64,000 bases of DNA from Tubulanus polymorphus (lineage: Eukaryota > Animalia > Nemertea): assembly GCF_964204645.1 (NCBI RefSeq), contig NC_134025.1, positions 20,869,101-20,933,100 of the forward strand. The letters are read 5' to 3'. The first letter of the stretch is position 1; the number at the start of each line of letters is the position of its first letter. The notes beneath the pieces are model-generated. The model was not told the DNA's origin. It saw only the letters and a list, made by a program, of their open reading frames with translations, and made no database searches. The position numbers were made by a program, and so were the translations under genes. This document shows positions 5,065 through 53,680 of the stretch, piece by piece.

Positions 5065-5456
5065 TCATAACTGGTCAACTGTCTCGTCATCTGACTGGCA
5101 GCTAAGTATTAATTGGTACGCTTTATTCTTATCGTGCGGGTCTATTCGCGTCGTAACTTGCTGCTGATTTTCGAACGTCACCGATTCCGCGCCTTTAATT
5201 GGTTTCCGGCGGCCATTTTGTTGCGTGAAAGTGCCGTTCTTAGAGTTCCTCGATCGGCGCGTCTCCCCGTTCATGCGTCCCGCCGGCTGGTCTTGGTCCA
5301 TTTTCTGCAGTTTTACCGCCAGGCTCTGCTCTTCGGACGGGGAATTGGCCATCCGTCGACGCCGCCGACATATCACTACGGCCACGACGATGACGATCAC
5401 CGATAGGACGAAAAATACCGATATGATGATTCCCAATTGCAAACCGATTCCATGAC
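5065..5456 (-). CDS. NETO-like terminal exon (TM helix, basic stop-transfer, cytoplasmic tail)
   Basis: ttttgcag acceptor completes TGT (Cys of DEENC); LGIIISVFFVLSVIVIVVAVVIC-RRRRR; TGA at 5065-5067. Confidence 0.9.
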
Positions 5457-8400
5457 CTGCAAAAGATTTATCACATCAAGAAGTGGCAAAGCTCTGAAAG
5501 CGAAGAACGTAGTAGGAGCAGTATTTTTGGGCCATATCATTCTAAAGCGAAGTTCATAAAAGTGTAAGTTTAAATGTATACAAGCGAAGTACACATTATG
5601 ATATTCTTGTTCTGTACAAATATCCTTTATTAAAGGAGCAAATAAAAATGTACATTTAAGCTCGGAAGAGCATCGCGGAAGTACGGAAGGGCATCGGGGC
5701 CATATGATTTTAAGTCGAAATTGTTTACTTAGTAAGCCAAATTTCAACTTGGATAGAAATGGTAGCAATGACCATGATGCGATCTTTTGGGGGATTTTCC
5801 TGTTGTGGACGGAATGGAAAAAGTCTGGAGGGCAAATTAATGGATCATTTTTAAACGAGCGATGATTTATCGTTCATATCTTCTCTTATTATGTGGGGAA
5901 ACGTGCAATGTTTATTTTATTGCCCGAAGCGTAAATTCATTTCGTAACGCGCTTCTGCGACGCCAGAATCGAAATTCATATCAATTTTCCAATTCCACGC
6001 AATTGCCTCGTATCGATATAGTTTCTCTGGCGAAAAGGCGAGATTTGCTGTCAAGTCGTGTATACGGATGCTTTTATAAAAGCGTACGTATAGATGAATA
6101 GGATGGGGTTGTTTTGCCGGCGGCGAAGCATCGGTATTATACACAGTTGTTGTAACGGAGAAGCGATAATTGACACACCTTACTGCTGTAAACAATATAT
6201 TGTACGGCATATGCGCGTTCTCCAGACAAAAATGGAAACTCGTTAGCATTTTGATCTGACATCGATTGCCTTCTCCCTAGACATAAACGCTACGCTTTTG
6301 AATTCAATGGTTTGTTTTCGCTGGTGGTATGGTGGCAATATGTATATTAAAGGTTTTGCCACTGAAGAAACGGAGCGCTGGAAACCTTAAAATGTATATC
6401 TCGATTAGAATCGTGATTCTACCCAGCACTTACAGTTTTCCTCATCGCTTTTGTCGTAGAAGCCGCAGTTCGGTATCTTGTTACACTCAAACTCTTTGGC
6501 GATGCAGTATCGTTTCAAGTCGTTGCACAACATTCCGGCCGAGTCCATGCACGTCACACCGCCGGCGCACCAGAAACCGTCTTCACACGCGCCTTCTGTA
6601 GCTACTACACGTGGAGCAAGGAAATAAATCAAACAACGTTATAAATTTACAAAAGACTTAGGCTTATAAAGGCTTTTGTCACTATGAAACCCACTAAGAA
6701 CTATGAAAGCTGATATCAGATAAAATAGAGCAGTTTTTCTCGTGTTTTTCTTTCGTAATCAATTCACAAAGGAAACGATTTGAGAGAATGTGTTTTGGAA
6801 AGTGTCCAATCTTAAGGTATGAAAATTTAGTGGCGTTAGATAATAATAGATATGATAGGACGGTAGCTAATTTTTTTTCTAAGAAATACTTGGAATCCGC
6901 CCGTCGACCGGTCGGACTTACAACATCTTAGGTCGGACTTGCAATCGATTGAAATGATAAAAAATTCGGATAAGTGCGATCATGCGCGCACGCATGCACG
7001 TATACCTTTGCTTGGAATCTGCACTGCTGTCCAGACGAGTCTAAATCCCTTGTTTCCACGGGCATTCGAAGCACCAGCCCTGTACCTGAATTAATGAAAA
7101 ATTGCCGTGTGAAGATGAACCGTGCGACCCATCGGTAATAGAATGACGGCGTGATTTTAGAAAAGTTCGCGTGCTAAGATGCGACTGGTAAATAATGTAT
7201 CGATAGAACAAGCTGTTAAAGAAGAAGCGGGTGACGGTACGAAATGTAGTGCGGAGGTTGGAACTGGAGAATTCGCAGTGTTTTTAGGGTGGTCGAATCA
7301 CAGCCGTAGCCAAATAAAATAATTTAGCACAGCCAAAAAATTGGACCAGGCCCACACTATAATCGTACAACGCCTCTCGTTTTGAAGCCAAAATTGAAGA
7401 TCTCTTGGCCTGTGTAGATTGCCTTGTTAAAGTTACTAGGTTTATACCAGCAATCAGCATGTCAAGATAGACATCTTAGTCTCGCCCGAATTCAGGTAAA
7501 CGCAAAGTAAAGAATTCGTTTGTGTAATGAATTTCTTATGGCGATAATTGCCGCTTCACAAGCCTTTGACTGTTTTAAACTTTAGAGTTATCAATCTTCG
7601 TATCACTATGTGCCGCAAAATAATATTGTTTGTATCATAAGAGATTGTTTGTATCATTAAATTATTGGTGTTCAAATATTCTGGCGCGAGTCCAGTATAC
7701 GGCATTATACATGTAGTGCGTGCGTAGAGTGTAGCGCTATTCGGTCAGTGTTTACAGCAAGTGACAGTTGACAGTCGACAGCTAGGGTAAACGATGAGAA
7801 GAGGTGGCAACCTATCTCACATAACTGTAATATTGCAGTTTTGTCATTTGCCTTAACAGCCATTTCTGTTCATAGTTTTCAATGTTTCTCATAAATCCAG
7901 TGCGTATATACGTAATCGGATGATTGGATAATATTGATTCGAAACACCAGAAAGCCACGCATGTTTAACCTTTGGAATATGTTCACCAGGGCATTTTCCC
8001 TCAGTGCGATGCTTATATTAGATAAGCTTCCGTGTACATTTCCCTATAAAAACAAAATATCACGAACCAATTTTTTTCAGTACAGATAGCCGATTCGAGT
8101 ATGAATTCCGACGTAATCTCAAAAAGCACCGGGAATAATTGATTTCGTGGCAGAAGAAAAGACGATTAGGTAGGTGCCTCCCTGATATATGCAATCACAC
8201 GGAACCTAAGTGCTGTGTGGGTTGTTTACTGTCAACCATCCTGTTGAGTCATCACCTAACTGGTGTGTAGGAGTAGGATGTCTGCTGTCAACTGTCCTGT
8301 AAGCTATCATCCAGGGCCCGGTTTTATAGACTGGTATTATCTTTAACCAGGGGTTAAAGGGTGTCGCTTGTCATCAGCTGTAAACTAACGTCACTTATAT

Positions 8401-11400: not shown

Positions 11401-14400
11401 TCAAAACGGAAAGGGGATAAGACGAGCGGAACCGGCTCGCGAGTGGAATTCGATCGGACTATGTAACATTGGTTCGGTTTGTCGGGGGAGTTAACACCTA
11501 TATAATGAATCTATTTGATACGGCGCAATGGAAGCCTATTTTCCAATGTCATCGCTAACGATTGTATGTTTTCTAATTGTGCTACCAGTATAAAGATGGC
11601 TGCCTCTTACCCCACCCATGCCATCATGAACTTGCCTAATGATTACATTTGGTAATCGCGTTACCGCCGTAAAGATGAAGCTGTTAGGTAATTGAACAAA
11701 TAATGGCAATTTGTGGAATTTCTATGGAAGGTATTGTACACAGGGATTCGTATCACAGTTACAGATACTGTAAAAACGATAATCTGTTAATCCAGTGTCT
11801 AATGTATGCCTATCTATTCAATATAACACGAGACACTGAATCAACAGTTATCGTGTTTACAATCTTTTACAACTATACGTTACGAGCCCCCGTTGTTTTG
11901 AAGATACGAATATGATACGTAATATAGCGATTTATTTTGAGAGACCGAATTCCTCAGTCACACAAACACAGTTCCACAAGCCTTTTTTGTTGCATTTGTT
12001 AAAGGTTGCGCGTAGTTATTAAAAGGCAAAGCGTTTATCGGGGTTTACCTTGTGACGTATTATCGAAAGATTCTGAAACACAATGGTTAGTATACAAATA
12101 ACATCGAACTGAACTTGTTAATACGCTAATGCAGTAACGAACATGTCATTCGTAAAGGTTTCCACTGAATTGATATAGCAGTTGATTCAGTCCGTACTAA
12201 AAACACAAATTCTGTACGGCTAGAGGAACCATAAAAAATTTCACATTGGCCGTTTCTTTATTGTTTTCTCGCTTGAAAACAAAAAATGGACTAACGTAAA
12301 GAATTTTTCATCTAGTATCTAGCCGTTCAGAAAAATTTTTCAAACCGAAATGCTTTGTTTTCTCGCGCGGGAAAACCGAAATATTTTTAGTATGGACCGA
12401 ATCAGTCACCATAGAATTGATATATCATTGTTATGATATCTTTGTTTTACTATATTTGAGATTTTCGATTAGTCTCGTATGCGCCAACCGCCTCAATACC
12501 GCTGCGATATCATGACCCTAGAGCGCGAATGCCGAAAGTCTAATCAAGAGAAACCGATGCGTGGATTTGGAAATTTCCATTTCAGCTTCAGACAATTCGT
12601 GGACAAATTCGATTTATTAATAATCAATGCACCGTGCGATGGTCGTCTATACGAATCTAAAGCCGTTATGTCACCATCACCCCAGAGAGATTGCGGCGTC
12701 GAGCGAATCGCTCCTTTGAAACTAATGTTCATTTGTGAAAGACAGATAATAGCTCGAGTCGGTATTATTAAAGCCATTGCGAGCGAGATAAACCTACTTT
12801 CTGAGAGGAACTCGTATTTCGCTTTGAATCCTCGGTGTCCGCGGACATAATCCGACTTGAAAATCACTTCTAATTTCGGATACTTTGATATGATAGGTTG
12901 TGGAATGATGTCGCCGCACAAACGACCCAGCTTATAGGGTTGGCCGTCGTGGTCTACGGCTAGGATGTCGACATAATCAAACAAACATCTGGAAAAGTAC
13001 ATGATAAAAAAATGATCAACAAAATTTTAATCGCCAGAAGTAGAACTCAAAGAAATCAAGCACGATTCGTGTGATAGAAAAAATACAATCATGATCTAAA
13101 TTAGAAAATCTATATGGAATATTACTAAATATGTTATTATATGAAATCGAAAGCTATCGAATAAGAAAACGAAAAAAGACGATGAATTACCCCGCTTCAC
13201 TCCTAACTTCTAACTCAAAGGCAACAAAATCGAGACGGATTCGTTCGTCTAATGTCCCGGATATGATGTATTTACAGTAGGTGCGGTCGGGGTAGTTGTT
13301 TGGAAAGTTCGGAGTTGTGAATGTACCTCCGGGTACGGTGTGACTCGAAAAATGGTACTCGCATTTTGCTAAAAGTAAAGAACACGCATGTATCACATTT
13401 TTGAACTATATCAACGCGTTTTTTTACACGAATACTTGATTTCGAACAACAAACATTTAAACATTTAACGGAGACAGACTGCGAGTAGAATGATAACCAC
13501 AATCGGATGTGGTGCATTAATAACGTGTATGAACCCCATAAGGCCTTGTCTAATAACTCGAAGTACGTATTTGTTTCAAGAAAAAAATGGAGGGCGAAGG
13601 GAAAATTGAAATAGAGAAAACATTTATAATATGGCTTTTGGAAATGGAAGTGAACAGGAAATTTATTTTTCATTTTTTGAGTATTTTCAACATTTAAATC
13701 TCGGAAGGACTGCAGAAAAAGATTTAATTGGAATGAATTTGGTTCAAATGATGGGAGAAATGGAAAAACATTTTTAATGCAAATCACGAGACTGATAATC
13801 AAGATGAACATGACTTTTACAAGTTACTAGATTGAAAATCAAGATGGACATAACAGAAAGAAATTTTTATGGAAATGTTCTAATGAAAACACGAAGGACT
13901 AGAAAAATTATTTTTTCTTTGTAATTCGATAGTACTTGTAGAGTTTAAGGAGGCGGATCTGCACTCCTATATTTGTTTTAGGAGTACGGATCTTTTCCCC
14001 ATCATTTTCTAGTAATTAAAGAAAAAGCCTAACAGATGAGTCGGGTTGCCTACAGTTCAACGAAAATTAAATTTTGTTCATTAAAAATGTTAAGCAGCTC
14101 TAATAATTGTCAGTAAGATTGTAATTTTCACTGGAAAGTTCCTATGCTTCTGATTAGATATTTGATTGTGTATGAACTTCAGTAACTACTCTTTAGAAAC
14201 TAATCGGATGAACGAAGACAAATATTGTTACTGACATGAAGATATGGTTTTAGAAACGAAGTAATCGCGCCGTCCGTTCAGCGACTGGAATGCCATTTCA
14301 ATTTTACAAATCCAATTTCGAAATACGTCGATGCACGACTCCACCTATTTGACAGACGCCAAATAATTGAATGACCCGAAATGCTTCGCTGGAATTAAAT

Positions 14401-35712: not shown

Positions 35713-37047
35713 TCATGCAATAGCCGATACTGGCTTTGGCTCATCGACTATTTCGTCAAGATGCAATGGCTTTAAGCTGGGCGTCGACGAGATGTGAAAT
35801 TCGTGGGCCTTTTCCAGCGCTTCTTTGTACTGTGTCGTAAGTTCGAGTTTTAACGTGATAACTTTCGCGTCAACCATTTTGTCGAGCGCCGATGGTCGTC
35901 TGATTTGTTCGAATTGTTCGGGAATACACGAGGACCGACGTCTACACACGTTTGTAGCCAGCACTCTCGCTTGATTGACCGTATGTACGAAGTCGTTCTT
36001 ATGCGGGTCGTTGGACGGTAGAGTGCGGCGTATTCGACTCGTCCGTCGTTCTTCCAGTGGTACTTTCGGCGGCATATCGTCCGAAAACGTATCCTCATCG
36101 TCATCATCGGGACCTTCAAAGATTTCCTTTTCCTCTTTGAGCAACGAATCCCATTCGCCGGTTTCAACTACCGATTTTCTTTTGTTGCCCATCGATAAGC
36201 CGTTGAGAGATACCGTCTCGTTGGCGCTGTTGTCTTCGCCGACGGAAAGACGAGGTGATACATTCGTTTTACTCTTGCGACGAGTCAAGATTTTAGCGCT
36301 GCTTCGCCGTCTGGTGTCAATTTTACCGCGACAACGTTCTGCATCTTCCGTACAACTTTCGGATTTAATACCAGAATCATTGACATGCTGATTTTCATGA
36401 GTTATTTCACCTTTGCATGGATCTTCGTCGTTGGTAAATCGTACAACTGAAATTCTTCTCGTTAATTTATCATCGCTTTTAGCTACAGTATTCGGAATAA
36501 GATTGTTCACGCTATTTTTTCTTATTTTGATAATTTCGCCCGGAACCTCGACGACTATGGCTCCATTTTCGTTATCTGGCGTGTGCTCTTCAGACGCTTT
36601 GGTGCGTACCTTCTTAAGTACATCTTCCCAATTGGGAAACTTTTCGTTTCGGGTAATCGGGCATGATTGGGGACGTGTCGGGACGTCTGGCTGAACTCGA
36701 TGCGAAACGATGTGGCGATTGCCGGCCGACGTTGCCCGTCGAAACTTTCCGAATCGTCTGCTGATCACCCGATCGCCGTAAAGAAAACACGATCCTATCG
36801 TCTGTCGTTGATAGTCGGTTTCCCGGTCGGGAGGTAAACCTTCTGGGCTGTACCCGCTCGACGATCTGATAAACGCCATACTACGGTTCAGAGTGTATAT
36901 GTTTTGATTCGTGAGGCGTATGTTGTGCGACTTTTCTTTTTCGAAAAGAATTATTTGCTTGCGCAGTCGGTTCTCTTCGAAATTGTTCACGCGACATGCC
37001 TTTTGAATGCGGAGCGATTTACCAGGAGTGACGTCAAATTTATTCAT
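35713..37047 (-). CDS. Uncharacterised ~444-aa protein: N-terminal predicted coiled coil, then an R/K/S/D/E-rich, probably disordered region with many RRxS motifs
   Basis: 1.3-kb open frame in AT-rich DNA; first ATG at 37047 in CACACC-ATG context with an in-frame TGA upstream (37102-37104); likely acceptor near 37215. Confidence 0.8.
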   Translation of the reverse strand: MNKFDVTPGKSLRIQKACRVNNFEENRLRKQIILFEKEKSHNIRLTNQNIYTLNRSMAFIRSSSGYSPEGLPPDRETDYQRQTIGSCFLYGDRVISRRFGKFRRATSAGNRHIVSHRVQPDVPTRPQSCPITRNEKFPNWEDVLKKVRTKASEEHTPDNENGAIVVEVPGEIIKIRKNSVNNLIPNTVAKSDDKLTRRISVVRFTNDEDPCKGEITHENQHVNDSGIKSESCTEDAERCRGKIDTRRRSSAKILTRRKSKTNVSPRLSVGEDNSANETVSLNGLSMGNKRKSVVETGEWDSLLKEEKEIFEGPDDDDEDTFSDDMPPKVPLEERRTSRIRRTLPSNDPHKNDFVHTVNQARVLATNVCRRRSSCIPEQFEQIRRPSALDKMVDAKVITLKLELTTQYKEALEKAHEFHISSTPSLKPLHLDEIVDEPKPVSAIA

Positions 37048-37254
37048 GGTGTGAGATTTTTTACGCAAACAAAAACGAGGTCTGCCAAGTTCCCATACCT
37101 TTCACAGATATCAACGTTAAGCGTTAATCCTACTATTTGTTCCTCGGTTACAACTTGAGATATCTCTTATACGTAGGTATAGTGTTCCATATACGAGATC
37201 GGCATTTGTGAAACCTACGAAAAGAGGACGCAATATCTTATAATTTAATTAAAG

Positions 37255-39520: not shown

Positions 39521-41142
39521 CTGAAGAAAAGAGACCGTTTTGTAATTTGTGAGACTTAACACGATAGTTAGAAAATCACACCATCTGAAAAATAATATCG
39601 AACAAACTTATAGAGTTGACCCATTATAGCTTTGGTTGATTACTTCTTCATCTCAAAAAGCAGATGCCGATGCAACTTATTTTTCGCGACAGTAACATTG
39701 ATGACATCATTGAGTAATGTTTGTTTTAAAGATCCTTTTTGGTGAATTTTTGTATTGATTGTATGATTATGGTATTTTGTTTTGTCTGGTTTCGCTGTTC
39801 TTGGTTTATTTGCAACTTGTAATATGTACGCTTTTCTTTCCAATTTATTTGTATCTCATATCATATCCTTATATTCGTTGTGTGTATCGTTCTACTCTTT
39901 TGTATGGACTGATACGATTGATAGATAAATTGTAATAAGTAGAATAGATATTGGAAAAAGGAGAGCGCAATTTTCACTGAAAACAACGTGTTTCTTTCAT
40001 CGCGAAACGATCTGCGCGTGGGTCTGAAATTTTGATAACTTAAACGCATCTAGGGGCATTCTGCGAATACCTTCATAAATGTATCTCACAAAAAATGTTT
40101 GGATCCTCAAATGATATAAGTACAGCGCACTCTGAATGTAAGTCCAAACTTTTTCAGCGAACTAAATCCTGGACAAAATTCCACACGAATGTTTAACCCG
40201 AATTCTGTGTCTACCTGAAAAGGCGGTCATTTCCAGATTTTCAACAAAAGCGGTTTGAAGCTTTTAACTGCTTTTGTTGAAAATGTGGGCGCTTTCGTCT
40301 CGGAAACCAAATCGCCATCTGACGTTCTATTTGAGATAAAGCCGTCGTATACGCCCAGTCGTTCGATGTGTTGCGACGAAACGGCGTACTGCTGAATCCT
40401 ACCGCGGTTTATTTCTAAAGTACGAAGACATTTTCATAAAAGCGTATTCTTAGCTTTCGTATATTAATTGTTGCTAAACAAAATAAATCTAGGAGTATAC
40501 ATGAGTGCCAAATTATAATCAGCAGTTTGCCACGTGGGATTTCTACTATAACGTTGGAATCGCCCGTGAACATTCGAAATGTTACTGGCCATAACCATAA
40601 ACCACGAACTCACCGATACTGCCCGCCAATCTGAATTTAATTTGGCGGTGCACCTCGGTTTAGCGTTGCTTTCCGAAATCGTAATACCTTATGTGTAATT
40701 TGAAGTGAATTATCAGTATAAAAATCCACCGTGACAGTTCGAGAAAACACTGTGATTTAATTGACAGTTTTAAGTATATCGGATGAACAGCGTTGCTCTC
40801 TCTCCCGTTCTACCGTTTCTTCTTTAGAACGCGCGCCGGTCATCAGCCTTTTTTGGTCGCAAATAAAGCTTGCATAAAATGAAATAAAAGTATATTCATC
40901 CAGGTCAGTTGTCACCGTCCCCACAGCTTCATTACGCATTTGCAGTTCTGTCCCCACAAATTACACTTGCAGGCTAGTTTGGCTTCCGGGCAGCATTTCT
41001 TCTCGCTATAGCCGGTCCACGGATCGCACCATTGGTTCCAGCGTTTACAACCTCTGGGCCAGTTGTGGTAGGCGTAGTCGGCTTGAGAACGCGAGCGCCT
41101 ATATTGGAAACAAAATGTTCGAATTTACAACAACCCGCGGGT

Positions 41143-41345: not shown

Positions 41346-41969
41346 CTACTCTAAATCATAGCAACGATATAATAATGTTTCAATCATATACATATCAGTT
41401 TTTCAGTTAGGATTCTGAACGTTGTATCTCAAGCACGGATTAGGCGGAAGGTTAGAATTTGAAAATTTGCATCGTCGAGAATTAAAAAGCCTCTTTTCAA
41501 ATCACTGATTATTTAGAAATTCAGAGGGCGTTTTCATTGAATTCGTTAACTCAGTTGAAAATTGTAAAATCGATTATTTCAGGAATGCATAAAATGTCGT
41601 GCGATGTTGTGATCAGAATTGCTCATTTTTGCTTTGTAACGTATAGAACAGTCAGTTACTATCCCTGAAATGATAATTTCGATTTAAAAGCGTCTGCTCG
41701 GGAAAAACAGCAAGTTAGAAATACTATGATATATGAAGACAGAATCCTTAGTTAGCGTGGAAAGTAACACATGCGAGGAGGTTATTAGGATAAATACATG
41801 GATTTTATTTATGAAAACCCATTTGACAGACAGAAAATACGAGATAATGTATCATAATGAATCGGAAACAATTCGTTTAGCCGATTAGGAACAAACGATA
41901 TAGGCACAGGGTCAGCCTTCACCACCTCATAGAAATACCCGTCGCCTCTGAGTCGCTAGTACGATTCGT

Positions 41970-42120
41970 TTATTTTCCGAAGAGCGATCTTGCACATCTG
42001 CAGTTCCATAGGCTGCACTTGCAGTAGTAGCTTTTGCAGCAGAAGAAACGCTCATTTTTCTTACGGTTGTCGCACGTTTGACCCCAAAGCCGGCATTGTC
42101 GGCCGCCGCGTCGGTCGTAT
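41970..42120 (-). CDS. Knottin precursor exon: mature 8-Cys peptide
   Basis: C-x6-C-x10-CC-x4-C-x-C-x4-C-x-C, ending LFGK-stop; long polypyrimidine tract before the acceptor. Confidence 0.9.
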
Positions 42121-45100
42121 CTTGCAAAAGAAAGAGAAATAGAAACAAAGTTTTGTTTCAGTGTCGTTCTAAAAGTGAATAAAACGCGCATACCGCCGCT
42201 GCGCGCGGCCGCCGCAAAGCTGAACCTGCGCCAGTAAGTCTGTGAGACCGTGGACCCTAAAACGTCGTTGGCCTTTCGTTTTAGAGTCCATAGTGAGACT
42301 AAAGAAAACATACCATGCTTAACATGAATATATGAGACGGTTTCACATAGTGTATGTAAGGTGACGGATAAGGGTCTAGAAATAGAACATCAGTGAAAAG
42401 ATTACGATATTTTGGTCAATTTCGGTTCTCAGGTGCACTAAAAGACAAACTGGATTCTTGGAAAAACAAGCTTTCACCAGAAACTTTAATTGATTCTGTT
42501 CGTTGTTCTTTCATTGCATGGCTGTTTTCACGAAAATGAACGAACCCCGAATGTATCAACAAAACTTTAAAAGTGGAGTTCTTAGTAATTGTATCAATGT
42601 TAGGCTACGTAGTAAAATTCCAATTATAATCATCGCTAAGACTGGATATTTTCCATGTCGTCACTGCACTGATTAACAGCGTGTCTTCGCGGACAATACG
42701 TAACGGCAAATATGTCTGTGCATATTTACCGACATCGTTGACAATTGTGGAGTCATTGATACTCGGAATATGGATGAATTTCATTCATTTCCGCGAATAG
42801 ATTCGAGTAGCCGACGCAACGTCGGGTGAATCGAACAATCAATGCTTGCCTTGGTTCACTTAATGGCGTCATTAATCACTGATGAAAGCTCGTATATATA
42901 GCGAGACAGACAAGATGCCCGAAATGTAATAGTTCTATCAGTGCGCAGACGAGGGGAAAGTTGAATTTACACGAACATCTTCTCAAATTTTCTCATTTCG
43001 GCCGATTCGAACGCGTGGTGGCCGCGTGTATAAGCAAATCGTGTGTATAGATTACGTAGGCCGACACATAAGGCTAGAAATTCAGAGACGGAAAATAACA
43101 TAATTGACGGGGAGTTTTTGTACGGATTACGAAAAGCTATTGGCTATTGAGGATGTATTCAGAGGTTTCGCTTGCTCATCAATACCGACTTTAAAGTCTT
43201 CCTTGTTTGCGCGCATAGGTAAGATTGCATTTCTGAGCGAGTGCGTCTTTATTTAAAAAAATACTTCTTGTTATGCCAGAAGAAACCTTATCAACGGCCG
43301 TTTTTGCACGCATTCTATTCCGAACCGATCCTCGCCGGTAATGATGATAGCTCGTCAAAAAACAGGCGGGCGCGTCATAACACAACAGGTGCCGCGTTTT
43401 GTCGACAACGGGAAACTTGCTAAAGAGGGGAAAAACGTTTTCGAAATCTCGCGACCCTGTTATTCCCGAATCTAAGCATCTGATTCAATACTGGAAATAA
43501 CAACGTCGATTATCTCAATGGAGAGTAAGAACCGTTTAGTGTTCTGGGTAAACACTTAGGCGTTAAACACTTAGATTAGGTGATAAACTATTCCACGTGT
43601 CGGCACTTAACGGACACTGCTCGAAACGAAAGAAAACTCGCTTGTTTCGTGACGCATTGCCCCAAAACAAGAAACACTGTTTCGATTGCTATGAGCAATA
43701 TCTGAAAAGCTAAACACCGGCACATAATATTGGCCAATCAGTAACAACCAGCAGATCACGTGATCCTCACTAATTTGATCACATGTGGTACTAATTTTCT
43801 TCGTCGTTGTTGGCACTGCGGATAAGTTTCAGTATGTTTCCTGTTTTGCCGTGCGCGATAATGAGTTAGAAAATCATAGAAACGCGCATAAAAAGAAAAT
43901 ATCTTTGTTCTGCTCTAGGCTCCAAGCCTAGTGCACACCGCAAAAGACCTTCAAACAGATAGCAGAAACAGGAAAGAAACGATTTTGATACGTTTCGAAA
44001 TTAAGTTCACAGCGAAACAAGAAGATGAGAGAAATCCCACAATAATTCAATCAAAAATGAAAAATTCTACGATTGAAAAACAATTTTTCATCTTTGACTG
44101 AATTATGGTAAGATTTCTCTCGTCATCCATCTTACACGGATAGTGTGTATCTTCTTTACTAAGCGAAACATACCGAAAACAAACCCATAATACAAACGAG
44201 TGAGAACAATGGCGGTGATCATACGGGTGATTCAATAGTTGTCACTAATTGGTTATTATGTTGGTGTTACTTTTCTAGCTAGTTGGACATCTAGGACATT
44301 CAAAAAAATGTTTCTTGGTTTGCGAAACCAACAGTTAAGGTTTCAGTAAACTGTGTTTCGTGTTTCACAATAACAAACACAGTCATGAGACAAGTCAGAA
44401 ACGTGCCTGTTTAATGTTTATTTCTTGCCCCGAAGTAATAGCGATGTGCGTAAATGTGTAATGTAATGTGAACCAGCAAACTGACCAAAAACAATAATAA
44501 CCAAGTCCCGAAGACAACAGGAAAACTTGTATCTTAAACGACAAATAATCTGTTAACGTTTGATGGCAATGTCGAAAAGAAACCAAAATATTCATCATGG
44601 AGTAAATATTGGTTTCTTTTAATCTCATTATCATCCAACGAAACATATTCCTGGTGTACAACAAAGGTTTGATTTACAGTTGAAATTGCTCAGCGAAGTA
44701 TTCAACCATTTCCATTTTTCATTATCAATTCAAATCGTTGTTATACAGCCAGAGAACAGATATAAGGTGGGTAACTATCTGATATTTTGAAAATCAAGCG
44801 ACAACAAACCGCAAATTTCTTCGTCTACTTAATCTACAGTTCGTTCTAAAAACAAAACACGAGAATCAGGAAATATGAAAGATAGAATCGCGTACAATAT
44901 CCATTCAATCGTATAGGATAGATATCAAAGTCAGCGACAGGCGGAACCATTTTATTAGTAGTTTTCTTTCTTATTTGTAGAGTACGTAATTGATATGGAT
45001 ATCAAACATTCGATTTGTTTCATTCGACGTATTTCATCGAATTATAACTTGTGTCGCGTTTTAATTTCTTGAATCAAGATAAATTAACATTACCAATATA

Positions 45101-48100
45101 ACAGCCGATATTGCAAATTAGTTTTTTAATGAAATTCTGTTTCAATGGGGAACCCACAACACCAGCTATCCCACCAGATGGCGTGACGAGTAATACATTT
45201 TACGTCGCCAAAATGTTCAATCAACTTTTAACTGAATTGTTTAGACTTCCGAATCCATTATCACAGCACCCACCAAATATACAATTATACTTTAATTTTT
45301 CTACTCGGATATTGATGTAGTTTTCATTGCTAAGTGATTTATCTAAGAAAAGGTTCAGTTTTAATTGAAATGTAGAAGAAATCGACGCGGAAGACCAACT
45401 AGTATCTACTAGCGAACCTAGTGGATCGTCGCCTGGAAGCCTCGATTGCCACAGTAGCGTCGTGGGTACCCCATTGATTCGAATTGTAGTTTCCTATATC
45501 AAAGGTAAATTATATTACAGGTAAGTGTTATCAAATATGATTTTTGTGTGTTATCTATTCGGTGAAATTAAAAGCACTTTTTGATATGTATCGATTTCGA
45601 CGATTTTGAATTAATCTGTGCACGCGCGCGCCAACGATGACTTTCGCTCAACGGAAAATTTTCAACAAAACTATCCGGCTCTACTTTAGAGAAACATCTG
45701 TCACAATCTAAAAACGCTGGAAAATTCATAAAAACTGTTTAAATTAAAGGTATTGAAGTATAAAGGGGCACTCAGATCGCCCTTACAACTGCAACTACAA
45801 CTAGAAGTGACTGGTTCGTAGGGCGACCTGAGTGCTGCTTTACAGAAACCAACTGGCTTATTAAATGATTACATCTTTAATCAAACTGTTATCATAGTTT
45901 ATTATGTTTGCATTTTGGTGTTAAGGTTGACTGTGAGCGTGTTCTTCTTATTGCATTTTCTCTTTTTTTCTTCTTCACTTTTCTCTTTTGAGGGCCCCGT
46001 TTTATATAATAAACTATTTCTTAGTTTCTACGGACCCCTCCAAGTCTAATTTACCGTATTTTGTATTATTATGCTTTCGTACACTATGCTGCAGATTATA
46101 TTTGAAAAATAAAGCGTTCGTTCATTCATTCAACGATCGAAACGATTTTCACAACAATTGACACGAGAACGAGAAGACAAGTCGACAATTATTTCTGTCG
46201 TCACACAAGCAAAAACGAGCAACACTGATCAGGACACGCGCAAAAAATAGAACAAGACATATAATTCTTCGAAACGTATTTTTCGAAACACAATCTAAAC
46301 AATGAGACGTTTATTGGTATTGATCTCGGAAAGATGGCTACGTCCACAAAATCCATGCATCATCCCTTAAAATCACCATAACTGCCCCTATAACATATGA
46401 ACACGTGGTAGTCGGCTAGAGTGGAGACAATGGGGACATTCCGTACCACCTTTTTTTCTCCTCTTAGCATCTTTATGTTGCTTTCGACGTAAACGTTCAG
46501 ACCCCGCCATGATAAGCTATATTAGTATCCCACGCTAATTAGATCGTTTAGTCGGATCGAACGTATATTTGATGACATCTTAGCCGGATTTATGGAGGTA
46601 CCCATCTTTACCGGGACAGTGGCACATCGCACTATTTGGTTAATATAGTGACTCGTTTTTTAAACGAATTAACAAAATATGGGGCCCACGTCAAAATAAA
46701 CACGACGTGTCCCCGCAATTCAACTTATTCGAAGATGTGGAGAATCCGTGGCTCACACATATGGAATGACCAATTATCAAAACGATAACTTTACGTATAG
46801 AAAATGATTTTCAATCTATTCTATGAAGTTTTAGACGATAGTTTTGTTCGCAGCGTATATCGTGAATTTGCATGGACGGGCCAATTATTGAATTCATATA
46901 CGATATCTGATGAACGATATCCAGTTTACACTAGATTAAATAGTTAGATTTTTCAACGACTTCGTCAGATATGAAAACGGACGAAGTATAGGATAGTAAT
47001 TTCTCTTCGGAATGATTTTTTATGCTCACCTCTTCGCCGCCGTTTGAAATACGTCCAACGCAGATTGTCTTTCATCGGAATCGTCGTCATCTGGAATCAT
47101 AAGATTTGAGCTAAAAATACCAGCGAGAGATCTGAGAAATGCACTGCCGGATATGTTATCAATGAAATCGTGTCGCAAAACACCACGATCTATCTGCTTT
47201 AGCGAAATATAAGTTCCTGTTCGTTTGAAGTACATATAATTCGGTGATAAACGGTATTTAAGGGATACGGCCACCATAACCTTGTCGCTAGAATTAGGGC
47301 CGTACTTAATGAAGTTGTGGCAAAAGTACCCCTTTTCATCTACCTTTGCCCTTTTGGAAAGTCTGTAATGACATTGCACCGCAATTCCCTGTACATTGTA
47401 AGAAAATATATTCGGTGAATAACGGTGTTAATGGGATACAACCACCATAACATTGTCGCTAAATCGGGGGCGTACTTAGAGGGGTGGTAAAAGTACCCTT
47501 TTTTCAACTGCTATTGCGCCGCAATTCTCCAGTACATCCTATGAAAATACACTAACACAAAGCCATTGTGCAAAATTATTTTAGCGTAATGAAATATCAC
47601 AATCATATATCCAATAGATATTTGTTGTAGAAATGTAGAAATTATAAGGCTGTTGTCTATTATAAGTTGGATTACGGATTCGATGGTCTTGAAATAATTG
47701 CGGGGGCGGGAAAAATTTAAAAATGAAACGTTATTTTTTTTAAACATTGAATTCATTACCAATTTAGTGATCCAGGAGCGGGATTTATTAACTGCTTTAT
47801 TTTAGAGGTCGTTTTGGGATAATAATATTCGAATATTTCGCTATTTTCCGCCTACACACACTGACTGACGCATCCATTTTTGCAAGTGACGCTATGTACC
47901 GAACGAACTCGACAAAAATATCGATTGTAACACCATTTTCCACCAGCCATGATCTGTGTGGGACGTCACAAGATGATGTGGCAGTGGAAAACTTATAAAT
48001 GTTTATTTTCATTGATCCATATCTATGCTTAAAAATATGGGGGTGGCGGGAAAGAGTAAGAATAATTTTTTTTTATACCGAGGAATGTTTAGAAAATTTT

Positions 48101-49771
48101 GCGGCGGATCCGTCGTACAATTAATAGTAAAAATCGGCCTAAGAAGAATCGTTGTATCGGTGTTTGAACCTACAGGTGACTGCCCTTTTCAAGAGTGTCT
48201 CTGCGCTATCCACATTCAGAGGAATAAGGCCATGTAAATATGATATTTTCAAGATTTGTTCTATATCCGTAAAGTAACGCGCATTTGATGATGCTTGGTT
48301 TTAAAGTTCAAACCGAGGAAGAGTTAGCTGCGGTAAAACGAAACCGAAACTTGAAACGCGAGGTGCAATTTACCGACCAGGAGTTCATACGATACGACAA
48401 AATGCTGGCGAGATTACGGCGATACGGTTTCGTTTCATATTCGGCGCACAATGGCTTTTAGCCACCATTTATCTCACCGGTTCTACATGGCGACAAATAT
48501 ACTTAAGAGGCACTCGTCGGATTTGCCACAAAATGGACGTATAAACGTAACTAATCCCGCTTATAGAGGATGAAACTCCGCTGACCATCGCTTTAATTAG
48601 CGTGCACGTGAACCGGGGTGTGAATCTATACAGTGTTTCTAAGGTTACGTGTCGTGTAATTAAAGAATATTGTAATGTAAATTTGCGAGCTTCGTTTAAA
48701 CTACGTACGGTAATAAACGTGTATTGTGGAGCGGTGTGGCCGAGTGATAAGAGCGTTCGACTCTAAGCCAGGTCGTGGGTTCGAACCCAGTACATTAACG
48801 TAGTGTCCTCGAGCAAGACACTTATTATCCTCATTGCCTCTCTCCACCCTTACTTCTCACCAGAGAGAGATGGCTGATATATGAAAGAGTTAAATGGCTG
48901 GGGTAATAATACCGAAAAATGTAAAGCGGTCTGAGCAGCTTCGCTTATCGTTATTATCATTCACGCGCGCCTACCCGAATGCGCGTTCAAATATTATCAA
49001 ACGTAAACCAAAAAGTGAATGAGAAAAGCTCAATCCTTCAATTATCCTTATAAGTCTAAGTATTTTCCACAAATTGAACGAATACCGGCGACGCCCTCGT
49101 ATTTCATATTGGCCATAGATAAACATCAAATGAATTCTGCGTATATTTGAGATGTAAGTCGCCGATATCTATAACCGATGGCGTTTATAGACACCACTGT
49201 GATTCATTAATCAAGTAATCAAACGGGGCATGGCACGCCGCCGAGACTGCGTGTGACGTTTTACAACTGTATAAGATAGAGCGTCGTGGAAAACCGTTAA
49301 GAGTGCATTTGGCGTTTCGCATAAAACAATTTTCCGTATAATCTTTTAATATCGGGTCGCGCGAAGCCTTTCGTATACGGATCATTAACCGATCAGAGCT
49401 CAAACGGCGAGACTTATTTATCTAAATATGAGAACGATTTAAACGCGTTGACGGGACCGTGAATACACTTTCATTTATAACCGAAAAATGAACGAGTATA
49501 CACAAAACGCCTCTGCCCACGCGTAATGAATCACAGAACGATATTTGGAACTAATCAAGCATCGCGAAAATATGAAACATCAATACCGATATTAGAGCGA
49601 AATGCGTCTTTTATTATCCGTACTCGTTTTCCTTTTAAAGGCAAACCCTAATTAATGAAAGTAATGGATACGTTGATGGGGTCACTTACCTCCGTAGAAA
49701 CCAATGCTGGAGCATAACACCACGGAAAACGTGATGGCTAGGATGTGTATCCTTAAAGCTGTTGATTTCAT
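41970..49771 (-). CDS. Secreted 8-Cys knottin prepropeptide (agatoxin-like/agouti-like peptide precursor), 97 aa, 3 coding exons
   Basis: Exons 49771-49690, 47090-47030, 42120-41970 give MKSTALRIHILAITFSVVLCSSIGFYG-DDDDSDERQSALDVFQTAAKR-YDRRGGRQCRLWGQTCDNRKKNERFFCCKSYYCKCSLWNCRCARSLFGK*; phases 1 and 2 are compatible. Confidence 0.85.
45144..45476. repeat. Dispersed repeat family E, copy 2
   Basis: Similar to 15599-15914. Confidence 0.65.
45768..45835. repeat. Short inverted repeat
   Basis: GCACTCAGATCGCCCT / AGGGCGACCTGAGTGC. Confidence 0.5.
47030..47090 (-). CDS. Knottin precursor exon: acidic propeptide ending in KR
   Basis: gattccag acceptor and AG|gtgagc donor; other AGs at 47111 and 47132 make the exact acceptor uncertain. 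Confidence 0.7.
47248..47510. repeat. Diverged ~95-bp direct repeat pair
   Basis: GGGATAC..CCACCATAAC.TTGTCGCTA...CGTACTTA...AAAAGTACCC at ~47248-47343 and ~47418-47510. Confidence 0.6.
48729..48960 (+). mobile_element. tRNA-derived SINE
   Basis: A box TGGCCGAGTG, B box GGTTCGAACCC, core GTGTCCTCGAGCAAGACACTT, TTA-rich tail. Confidence 0.75.
49690..49771 (-). CDS. Knottin precursor exon: signal peptide
   Basis: Acceptor gtttcag at 49789-49790; TACACC-ATG; hydrophobic core; G|gtaagt donor. Confidence 0.82.
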
Positions 49772-49933
49772 GGTGTATGTCGGTGAAACTGAAACGACAG
49801 ATTTTAGTTAATAATCATATATACATCCTTGAGTAGATGTAATTGCATTAGATGAGCATGACATCAGAATTGAATTGAGAATTAAACAGTAATATGTAGT
49901 CTAGTTTGACTAATCTCGCTAAAATGTGGTAGT

Positions 49934-52984: not shown

Positions 52985-53680
52985 GGATTTTTCGATTCCT
53001 TGTTGAGTTTTGTTGCGGTAAATGAATCCTACGTGGTAACTGTATAAAACCGATATGAGTTGGAATAATTCGAGTTTCTTCTAACAGTACTTCAAACAGC
53101 AACGCACATTGTATTGCGTTGGGAAAAAAATTAAGCTAAGTTAAGTCTAGTAAAAACCCTAACTTATAGCTGCGAGTAATTGTGCGCGGTTTGGTATTCT
53201 CGACACAAATGAGACAAATGCAACTCGGTGTCGCTCCCACTGTACGCTGCTGTTCTGGTAGTAGGCGGCGGGAATGACGCCAACCGTAGCAATTCCGTGT
53301 TTACGTTCAGAGCAAAATGAAATATTATCTTAATCGAAATGTGTTAACAATATCATGCATCTGAAGAGGACGTGACGTATATCCGAACAGTGTATTGCTT
53401 CTCTGCCCATAGAATAATCTTAATCGCCGGTAGGGGGCAGTGCTTCGTGTGGCAATGACGTCATATACTGCATATTGCTAGTAGTAAACAAGTCTCTATT
53501 CATAGCTCAGTGATGATCTCAATGTAATCCTGGATACATGTAATCATTCCCCACGGAGAAGAGTTGACGACAAGTGTGGGGATCGGCTGACAACTTGTAA
53601 TTAAGATGGATCGTCGCTGGTAACCCCTAAATCAGCGACGCCTATTGATTTGAAGTTAATAAATATAAAGTGACGTCAAA
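52985..53680 (-). promoter_or_regulatory. Putative non-coding first exon and promoter of the knottin gene
   Basis: gtaagt donor at 52984-52979; TATAAG-like at ~53163-53168; TGACGTCA at 53456-53463 and 53671-53678; CTCF-like CCGGTAGGGGGCAGT at 53427-53441. Confidence 0.45.

What the first reader, a model, noticed from the sequence alone, without database searches (positions are those of the whole stretch)
41970..49771. Hidden three-exon secreted knottin (agatoxin-like/agouti-like) neuropeptide or toxin precursor
Seen: three tiny exons spread over 7.8 kb splice in phase to a 97-aa precursor. It has a signal peptide, an acidic spacer, KR and RR sites, then GGRQCRLWGQTCDNRKKNERFFCCKSYYCKCSLWNCRCARSLFGK. 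Known: the C-C-CC-CxC-CxC framework with a 'CxC(N/S)LW..NCRC' tail matches arthropod agatoxin-like peptides (ALP), U8-agatoxin-type knottins and the agouti/AgRP cystine-knot family. Inference: this is a processed, amidated neuropeptide or a venom/mucus toxin. Such genes are easily missed by annotation.
Basis: partly seen in the sequence, partly recalled or inferred. Interest (0 to 1): 0.85.

Follow-up and report, generated by a model that had tools for sequence, protein, structure and literature searches.

The report
Ribbon-worm neuropeptide gene, two swappable endings
This is a real, spliced and already annotated ribbon-worm gene of the known CCWamide (agatoxin-like) peptide family whose shared front end is joined to either of two different last exons, so that one gene likely releases two different cysteine-rich signalling peptides rather than a venom toxin.

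Summary
In detail: the three exons splice in phase to a 97-aa precursor identical to NCBI's Tubulanus polymorphus LOC141914719 isoform X2, and one public run shows both junctions at GT-AG sites. It is therefore not missed by annotation. The gene is a CCWamide / agatoxin-like peptide (ALP) precursor: eight cysteines, amidation signal after an aromatic residue, phase-1 and phase-2 introns, the KR site split by the last intron. Counterparts of both forms are listed as CCWamide in Thiel 2021. Each ending is closer to its counterpart in Lineus than to the other ending, and published sequence lists show the same pair in 6 of 13 nemerteans and 2 of 4 phoronids, which that paper does not remark on. 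Agouti membership fails. A knottin fold was not shown by my models. Most likely a neuro/enteroendocrine signal with unknown receptor; toxin role unsupported. The scan had not noted this gene before; it noted a similar multi-ending design in an unrelated peptide gene.

The parts
52985..53299 (-). 5' UTR exon (5' end is only as far as the contig reaches)
   Evidence: Run X3 contig record 6 covers 53299-52985 and joins to 49788 across a 3196-nt GT-AG intron; donor GTAAGT
49690..49788 (-). Shared coding exon 1: 17 nt UTR, ATG at 49771, predicted signal peptide; phase-1 intron follows
   Evidence: Translation; hydrophobic stretch, 7-residue Kyte-Doolittle means 1.5-2.6 for windows starting at residues 5-19; joint 49690/47090. 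SignalP was not available
47030..47090 (-). Shared coding exon 2: acidic spacer ending in K plus two bases of the R codon of the KR site; phase-2 intron follows
   Evidence: Translation; phase arithmetic; joints
41970..42120 (-). Last exon A (proximal), coding part: 8-Cys peptide, Cys spacing 6-10-0-4-1-4-1, ends F-G-K-stop (predicted Phe-amide); gives the 97-aa isoform X2
   Evidence: joint 47030/42120 in run X3
41804..41969 (-). 3' UTR of exon A with AATAAA at 41809 (predicted proximal poly(A) signal)
   Evidence: X3 contig covers down to 41827; hexamer. Use of this signal is inferred
40912..41098 (-).
   Evidence: Pattern scan, sequence, NCBI isoform X1 at 100%, joint 47030/41098 in run X3
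40408..40911 (-). 3' UTR of exon B with AATAAA at 40413 (predicted distal poly(A) signal; ATTAAA also at 40761 and 40641)
   Evidence: X3 contig covers down to 40470; hexamers. Use of the signal is inferred

Best explanation
This is the Tubulanus CCWamide (agatoxin-like peptide) precursor gene, spliced to either of two last exons, each carrying its own eight-cysteine peptide and stop codon, and the two products are likely secreted, cut, amidated and released as signalling peptides acting on a still unknown receptor. Shown: the exons, all four junctions, both isoforms, family features. Inferred from family knowledge: a signal peptide takes the precursor into the secretory path; four disulfides form (an inhibitor-cystine-knot pattern is expected but was not shown); a prohormone convertase cuts at the conserved KR (peptide A may be trimmed again at RR); carboxypeptidase removes the last K/R and PAM turns the Gly into an amide (Phe-amide for A, Trp-amide for B). 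Choice between A and B likely depends on competition between the proximal acceptor plus poly(A) site and skipping to the distal acceptor. The cells are probably neurons and gut endocrine cells; a GPCR is my best guess for the target (about 0.55), an ion channel next.
For: Identity with annotated isoforms X2 and X1 of one locus. Junctions at GT-AG in run X3, while run X1 has contiguous contigs over the exon/intron borders and lists none of these joints. Family features listed in PMC8557429 section 9 are met. That paper's supplement files the counterparts of both forms from 'T. polymorphus' under CCWamide. Lineus longissimus has one NCBI locus with the same two isoforms. Core identities: A-A across species 24/41, B-B 28/45, A-B within this gene 17/41, so both endings are old and kept. 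CCWamide mRNA is broad in gastropod head-ganglion neurons (bioRxiv 10.1101/2023.06.22.546160, passages); ALP was found by mass spectrometry in cockroach brain and neurohaemal tissue (PMC12604039, passages).
Against: No expression site or peptide was measured for this gene. The CCWamide confirmed by mass spectrometry in L. longissimus is a spacer peptide of another paralogue (c34565); the places I saw for the orthologue c37514 (6 of 9; others in the FASTA lists) were sequence lists only. Oyster CCWamide is low in visceral ganglia and mainly in digestive gland (PMC8398477), so 'neural' is not general. No receptor or function is known for the family (PMC13311285). Junction evidence comes from one run whose kind is not on record, in the same study as the DNA runs.
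Confidence: 0.8

Rival explanations
1. One ending (most likely A) has been co-opted as a gland or mucus toxin while B stays the neuropeptide: a 'moonlighting' gene resolved by splicing.
For: Nemerteans secrete knottin-type toxins, including an agelenin-like one in Lineus mucus (PMC10674772). ALP was recruited to spider venom. Cone snails derive some toxins from neuropeptide genes by alternative splicing (PMC13542836, passages). Peptide A is very basic (net +10) and less conserved than B. ESM Atlas neighbours are arthropod toxin-named clusters (best score 0.90), a lead only.
Against: An A-like ending is listed for two phoronids, filter feeders not known to be venomous (lifestyle recalled). A is single-copy in the window and conserved across palaeo- and heteronemerteans, unlike typical fast-expanding toxins. 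The agelenin-like mucus toxin is reported only from Lineus and Riseriellus; I could not see its sequence. In the cone-snail cases the splice adds a new 5' UTR, not a second mature peptide. Both forms share promoter and signal peptide.
Confidence: 0.1
2. The products are secreted gut or epithelial defence peptides (cationic, cysteine-rich antimicrobials) rather than receptor ligands.
For: Net charge +10 (A) and +8 (B); oyster orthologue mainly in digestive gland; decapod ALP found in intestine (PMC4888303).
Against: Conserved amidation signal, dibasic processing and intron pattern across protostomes; neuronal expression of orthologues. Gut expression also fits enteroendocrine cells.
Confidence: 0.07
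3. Exon B is the remnant or end of a separate tandem paralogue and isoform X1 is a prediction or assembly artefact.
For: Contig joints rest on about 30 letters on the short side; no single long read spans a whole transcript.
Against: No second signal-peptide or spacer exon in the window (tblastn); only 871 nt lie between the A stop and the B acceptor; joint 47030/41098 is seen at GT-AG; the same shared-front pair is in transcriptomes of eight species and in the Lineus annotation.
Confidence: 0.02

Closest known systems
Spiralian CCWamide precursors (PMC8557429, section 9 and supplement parts 9, 10, 214, 241 read)
   Same: Signal peptide, unconserved spacer, KR, one C-terminal 8-Cys peptide with amidated aromatic end; introns in phase 1 and 2; counterparts of both isoforms are already listed for 'T. 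polymorphus'. Ending B resembles the oyster, Platynereis and chiton CCWamides (by eye).
   Different: The paper describes three coding exons and one mature peptide per gene; it does not describe two alternative mature-peptide exons. Ending A has a shorter last loop (4 residues) and predicts a Phe-amide.
Arthropod agatoxin-like peptides (ALP; U8-agatoxin-Ao1a-like)
   Same: Same Cys order, same intron phases with the cleavage site split by the last intron; Pfam Toxin_9 weak match for all 4 proteins, best E 0.00021.
   Different: ALP has a 6-residue C2-C3 loop, these have 10. ALP genes have splice variants too, but the passages I saw do not describe two different mature-peptide exons; the primary papers (Sturm 2016, Christie 2020) were not seen.
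Neuropeptide genes with alternative last exons: termite/decapod CNMamide, arthropod calcitonin A/B (PMC4888303), oyster QSamide3/PXXXamide (PMC8398477); vertebrate calcitonin/CGRP (recalled)
   Same: One shared signal peptide and spacer, different mature peptides by splicing.
   Different: Unrelated peptide families; here the swapped unit is a whole 8-Cys domain of 40-44 residues.
Vertebrate agouti / AgRP (PMC3397983, passages)
   Same: C-x6-C ... CC ... C-x-C ... C-x-C order at the end of a short secreted precursor.
   Different: 8 instead of 10 Cys; C2-C3 loop 10 instead of 5-6; RFF not in the active-site loop (and absent from B and from the Lineus peptides); no Pfam Agouti match listed.
Nemertean knottin toxins (alpha-nemertide; U-nemertotoxin-3)
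   Same: Small secreted cysteine-rich peptides of ribbon worms.
   Different: Reported from pilidiophoran mucus; U-nemertotoxin-3 only in Lineus and Riseriellus. No sequence comparison was made.

Membership tests
CCWamide / ALP | Short precursor: signal peptide, unconserved spacer, cleavage site, one C-terminal peptide | tested here: met
   signal peptide judged by hydropathy only, SignalP not available
CCWamide / ALP | Eight conserved Cys in the mature peptide | tested here: met
   8 Cys in both A and B, same order as in Lineus orthologues
CCWamide / ALP | Aromatic residue between Cys6 and Cys7 | tested here: met
   Trp in both
CCWamide / ALP | Amidation signal after a C-terminal aromatic residue | tested here: met
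   F-G-K-stop (A), W-G-R-stop (B); the signal is seen, amidation itself is not measured
CCWamide / ALP | Signal peptide in first coding exon, mature peptide in last exon, phase-1 then phase-2 intron, cleavage site split by the last intron | tested here: met
   against the patterns
CCWamide / ALP | Processed peptide present in nervous or neuroendocrine tissue | not testable with these tools
   No tissue-resolved data for this gene
Inhibitor cystine knot (knottin) fold | Knotted disulfide topology | tested here: inconclusive
   Single-sequence models: A pLDDT 84, best structural Z 2.6 (rmsd 2.4, 29 aligned, granulin), no Foldseek match at E <= 0.001; B pLDDT 64, best Z 2.0. Sequence profile gave only non-significant hits to knottins in PDB (E 1.9-9.6)
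Agouti / AgRP | Ten Cys with C-x6-C-x5/6-CC start | tested here: not met
   Eight Cys, C-x6-C-x10-CC
Agouti / AgRP | R-F-F (or R-L-F) in the active-site loop | tested here: not met
   RFF in A lies before the CC pair; the corresponding loop holds other residues; B has no RFF
Venom / mucus toxin | Gland-specific expression, presence in secretion, toxicity | not testable with these tools
   No tissue data; four nemertean toxin papers searched by passage gave no mention of CCWamide or this gene for the terms used

The most novel reading that the evidence does not exclude
The mature-peptide exon of one CCWamide gene was duplicated in tandem before nemerteans and phoronids split, and both lineages still use it to make a second, Phe-ending ligand from the same gene. 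If molluscs and annelids lack it, it is a rare genomic character uniting Nemertea with lophophorates, and a built-in ligand pair for finding the orphan ALP/CCWamide receptor.
Probability: 0.3. Interest if true: 0.6.

Novelty: new variant of a known kind. Interest (0 to 1): 0.32.

Why it matters
The family and even this gene are on record, so the finding as given is ordinary. What remains of value is the two-ending design: it doubles the ligands of an orphan peptide family from one gene, has been kept at least since palaeonemerteans and heteronemerteans split, and may be shared with phoronids, which bears on where ribbon worms sit among spiralians. It also warns that toxin-named database hits for such peptides usually point to an endogenous signal.

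Tried and rejected
No whole genome was held, so paralogues elsewhere in the genome and synteny were not examined. The run search listed no holder on record as RNA; this blank is no evidence, and laying the runs then showed spliced joints in X3. Contig depths of the two joints (203 and 124) cannot rank the isoforms and were not used. Single-protein PDB search found 0 matches at E <= 10. Both structure models came from single sequences and matched no solved knottin: inconclusive. Protein searches reached only Tubulanus and Lineus (4 proteins among 25 candidates), so mollusc, annelid and brachiopod genomes could not be tested directly. No DNA-level similarity remains between exons A and B (best blastn E 1.0). 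A third ending was looked for in the window: none. ESM Atlas hits were at or under 0.90 and are leads only. Christie 2020 was not held. The RFF stretch as an agouti pharmacophore was rejected on position. Literature searches that found no description of alternative mature-peptide exons in CCWamide genes: 'CCWamide' (8 papers, 7 listed), 'agatoxin-like'+'splice variant', a five-term search, and text and supplement of PMC8557429; subscription journals and bioRxiv supplements were not searchable.
Full report
Observation. The minus strand holds an ATG at 49771 and three coding pieces, 49771-49690 (82 nt), 47090-47030 (61 nt) and 42120-41970 (151 nt), with GT donors and AG acceptors; they sum to 294 nt, 97 codons plus stop. 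A protein search with the last piece returned one protein, 100% identical and 97 aa long, named by NCBI 'uncharacterized protein LOC141914719 isoform X2 [Tubulanus polymorphus]' (accession XP_074662096.1); its three parts match the exon translations. The window is therefore from a palaeonemertean ribbon worm, and the gene is annotated, though without a name. An eight-cysteine pattern occurs twice in the six frames of the window and never in 100 simulated windows of the same trinucleotide make-up.

It equals the end of isoform X1 of the same locus, 109 aa, whose first 48 residues are those of X2. Contigs of public run X3 show four joints, all with GT-AG ends: 52985/49788, 49690/47090, 47030/42120 and 47030/41098. 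The kind of X3 is not on record; it behaves as RNA because it skips exactly these introns, while X1 of the same study has long contigs running through exon borders and lists none of these joints. This is one run from one study, and the short sides of the two last joints are 30-31 letters. The gene thus has a 5' UTR exon, two shared coding exons and two alternative last exons, A (proximal) and B (distal). AATAAA hexamers lie at 41809 and 40413, just beyond where the X3 contigs end (41827 and 40470). No third ending and no second front were found in the window.

Family. Thiel et al. 2021 (PMC8557429; sections 9 and 15 read whole; other passages; supplement parts 9, 10, 214, 215, 241 and searches) define CCWamide, the spiralian orthologue of arthropod agatoxin-like peptides, by a short precursor with signal peptide, spacer and one C-terminal peptide of eight cysteines, an aromatic residue between Cys6 and Cys7, an amidated aromatic end, and a last intron in phase 2 inside the basic cleavage site. 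Both isoforms meet each feature that sequence can show. Their supplement lists, under CCWamide, two 'T. polymorphus' transcripts of one component that share the front up to KR and end in clear counterparts of A and B, though with many substitutions and some indels relative to this genome (by eye). B ends in W-G-R like the oyster and Platynereis peptides; A ends in F-G-K. The agouti comparison fails: AgRP/ASIP have ten cysteines and RFF in the active-site loop (PMC3397983, passages), whereas these have eight, a 10-residue second loop, and RFF only in A and before the CC pair.

Age of the two endings. Lineus longissimus has one NCBI locus, LOC135487422, with isoforms X1 (109 aa) and X2 (90 aa) of the same two types. 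From the first cysteine on, A matches Lineus A at 24 of 41 positions and B matches Lineus B at 28 of 45, while A and B of this gene match at 17 of 41, eight of them cysteines (BLASTP 17/44); no DNA similarity remains. The duplication is thus older than the split of these two nemertean classes. Reading the whole CCWamide section of the supplement, both endings on a shared front appear in 6 of 13 nemerteans (T. polymorphus, Baseodiscus unicolor, Lineus lacteus, L. ruber, L. longissimus, Cerebratulus sp.; in L. lacteus and L. ruber one of the two is partial), one ending only in 2 (C. marginatus B, Cephalothrix A-like), and neither in 5, including all three hoplonemerteans. Among phoronids 2 of 4 (Phoronis ijimai, P. 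psammophila) have a shared front with a B-type and a second ending that resembles A in spacing and residues but lacks the amidation glycine; P. australis shows B only. One P. psammophila transcript yields both the front-plus-A frame and a B frame with a foreign lead-in, which suggests the same A-then-B order (inference; no nucleotide sequence seen). None of 6 brachiopods shows the pair (2 have any CCWamide listed). In the paper's reference set, 27 mollusc, 3 annelid and 2 entoproct entries include eight species with two entries, and in each the two fronts differ, so they look like separate genes; that set may have dropped isoforms, so it is weak evidence of absence. These cross-species comparisons from the supplement are by eye, not computed. 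The paper's text does not mention this splicing; its one note on alternative splicing concerns the spacer of another paralogue.

How it most likely works. Shown: transcription and splicing to two precursors. Inferred from the family and from standard prohormone processing: signal peptide (hydrophobic stretch over about residues 5-25), disulfide formation, cleavage at the KR that is invariant in all four proteins aligned, trimming of the last basic residue and amidation. The RR in A is not in the Lineus orthologue and may be a secondary cut. Isoform choice probably reflects use of the proximal acceptor and poly(A) site against skipping to the distal exon, as in other peptide genes with alternative ends (CNMamide and calcitonin, PMC4888303 passages; oyster QSamide3/PXXXamide, PMC8398477 passages). 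Orthologues are expressed broadly in gastropod head-ganglion neurons (bioRxiv 10.1101/2023.06.22.546160, passages) and found as peptides in cockroach brain and neurohaemal organs (PMC12604039, passages), but the oyster gene is mainly in the digestive gland. Receptor and function are unknown for the whole family (PMC13311285, passages).

Results against or short of this reading. The knottin fold was not shown: single-sequence models gave pLDDT 84 (A) and 64 (B) and matched no solved knottin (best Z 2.6 and 2.0). Pfam Toxin_9 is below cut-off for A. The mass-spectrometry support for CCWamide in L. longissimus is for a spacer peptide of a different paralogue. A toxin role is not excluded: nemerteans secrete knottins (PMC7460313, PMC10674772, passages), and cone snails recruit neuropeptides by splicing (PMC13542836, passages); but searches of passages in four nemertean toxin papers gave nothing tying this gene to secretions, and an A-like ending in phoronids argues for an older, non-venom role. 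PMC13760995 (passages) adds only speculation on ALP roles. Sturm 2016 and Christie 2020 were not seen, so what arthropod ALP splice variants change is not checked here.

Verdict. Real gene, known family, already annotated and in part already published: the finding as written is ordinary. The two-ending design conserved across nemerteans and perhaps phoronids was not described in the papers I could search and is the part worth following. Interest 0.32.

Noticed in passing
window 12544-13026 (-) and 5065-5475 (-): An exon with a CUB domain (Pfam PF00431, E 1.1e-08) and, downstream on the same strand, a frame with a transmembrane-like stretch and basic tail; possibly parts of one membrane-protein gene.
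   Followed up: no
window 35713-37101 (-): A 462-codon open frame without a Pfam match above cut-off, the next long frame downstream of the peptide gene.
   Followed up: no
window about 44030-44130, 45140-46120, 47700-47960, 48760-48900: Intron stretches with very high summed contig depth and many variant letters: dispersed repeats of the genome.
   Followed up: no
window 40910-41049, run X4: A run under the same species label holds exon B with 27 other letters in 140, and the published 'T. polymorphus' proteins also differ clearly from this genome's; the species name may cover more than one species.
   Followed up: partly
window 41969-41974 (-): An AATAAA overlaps the stop codon of exon A; the X3 contig reads past it, so it is not the only 3' end signal.
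   Followed up: partly
window 53109 (-), 5' UTR exon: One upstream ATG opens a 5-codon frame out of phase with the main start.
   Followed up: no
PMC8557429 supplement, CCWamide list: One entry under the hoplonemertean Paranemertes is nearly letter for letter the brachiopod Hemithris entry, which looks like cross-contamination in that data set.
   Followed up: no
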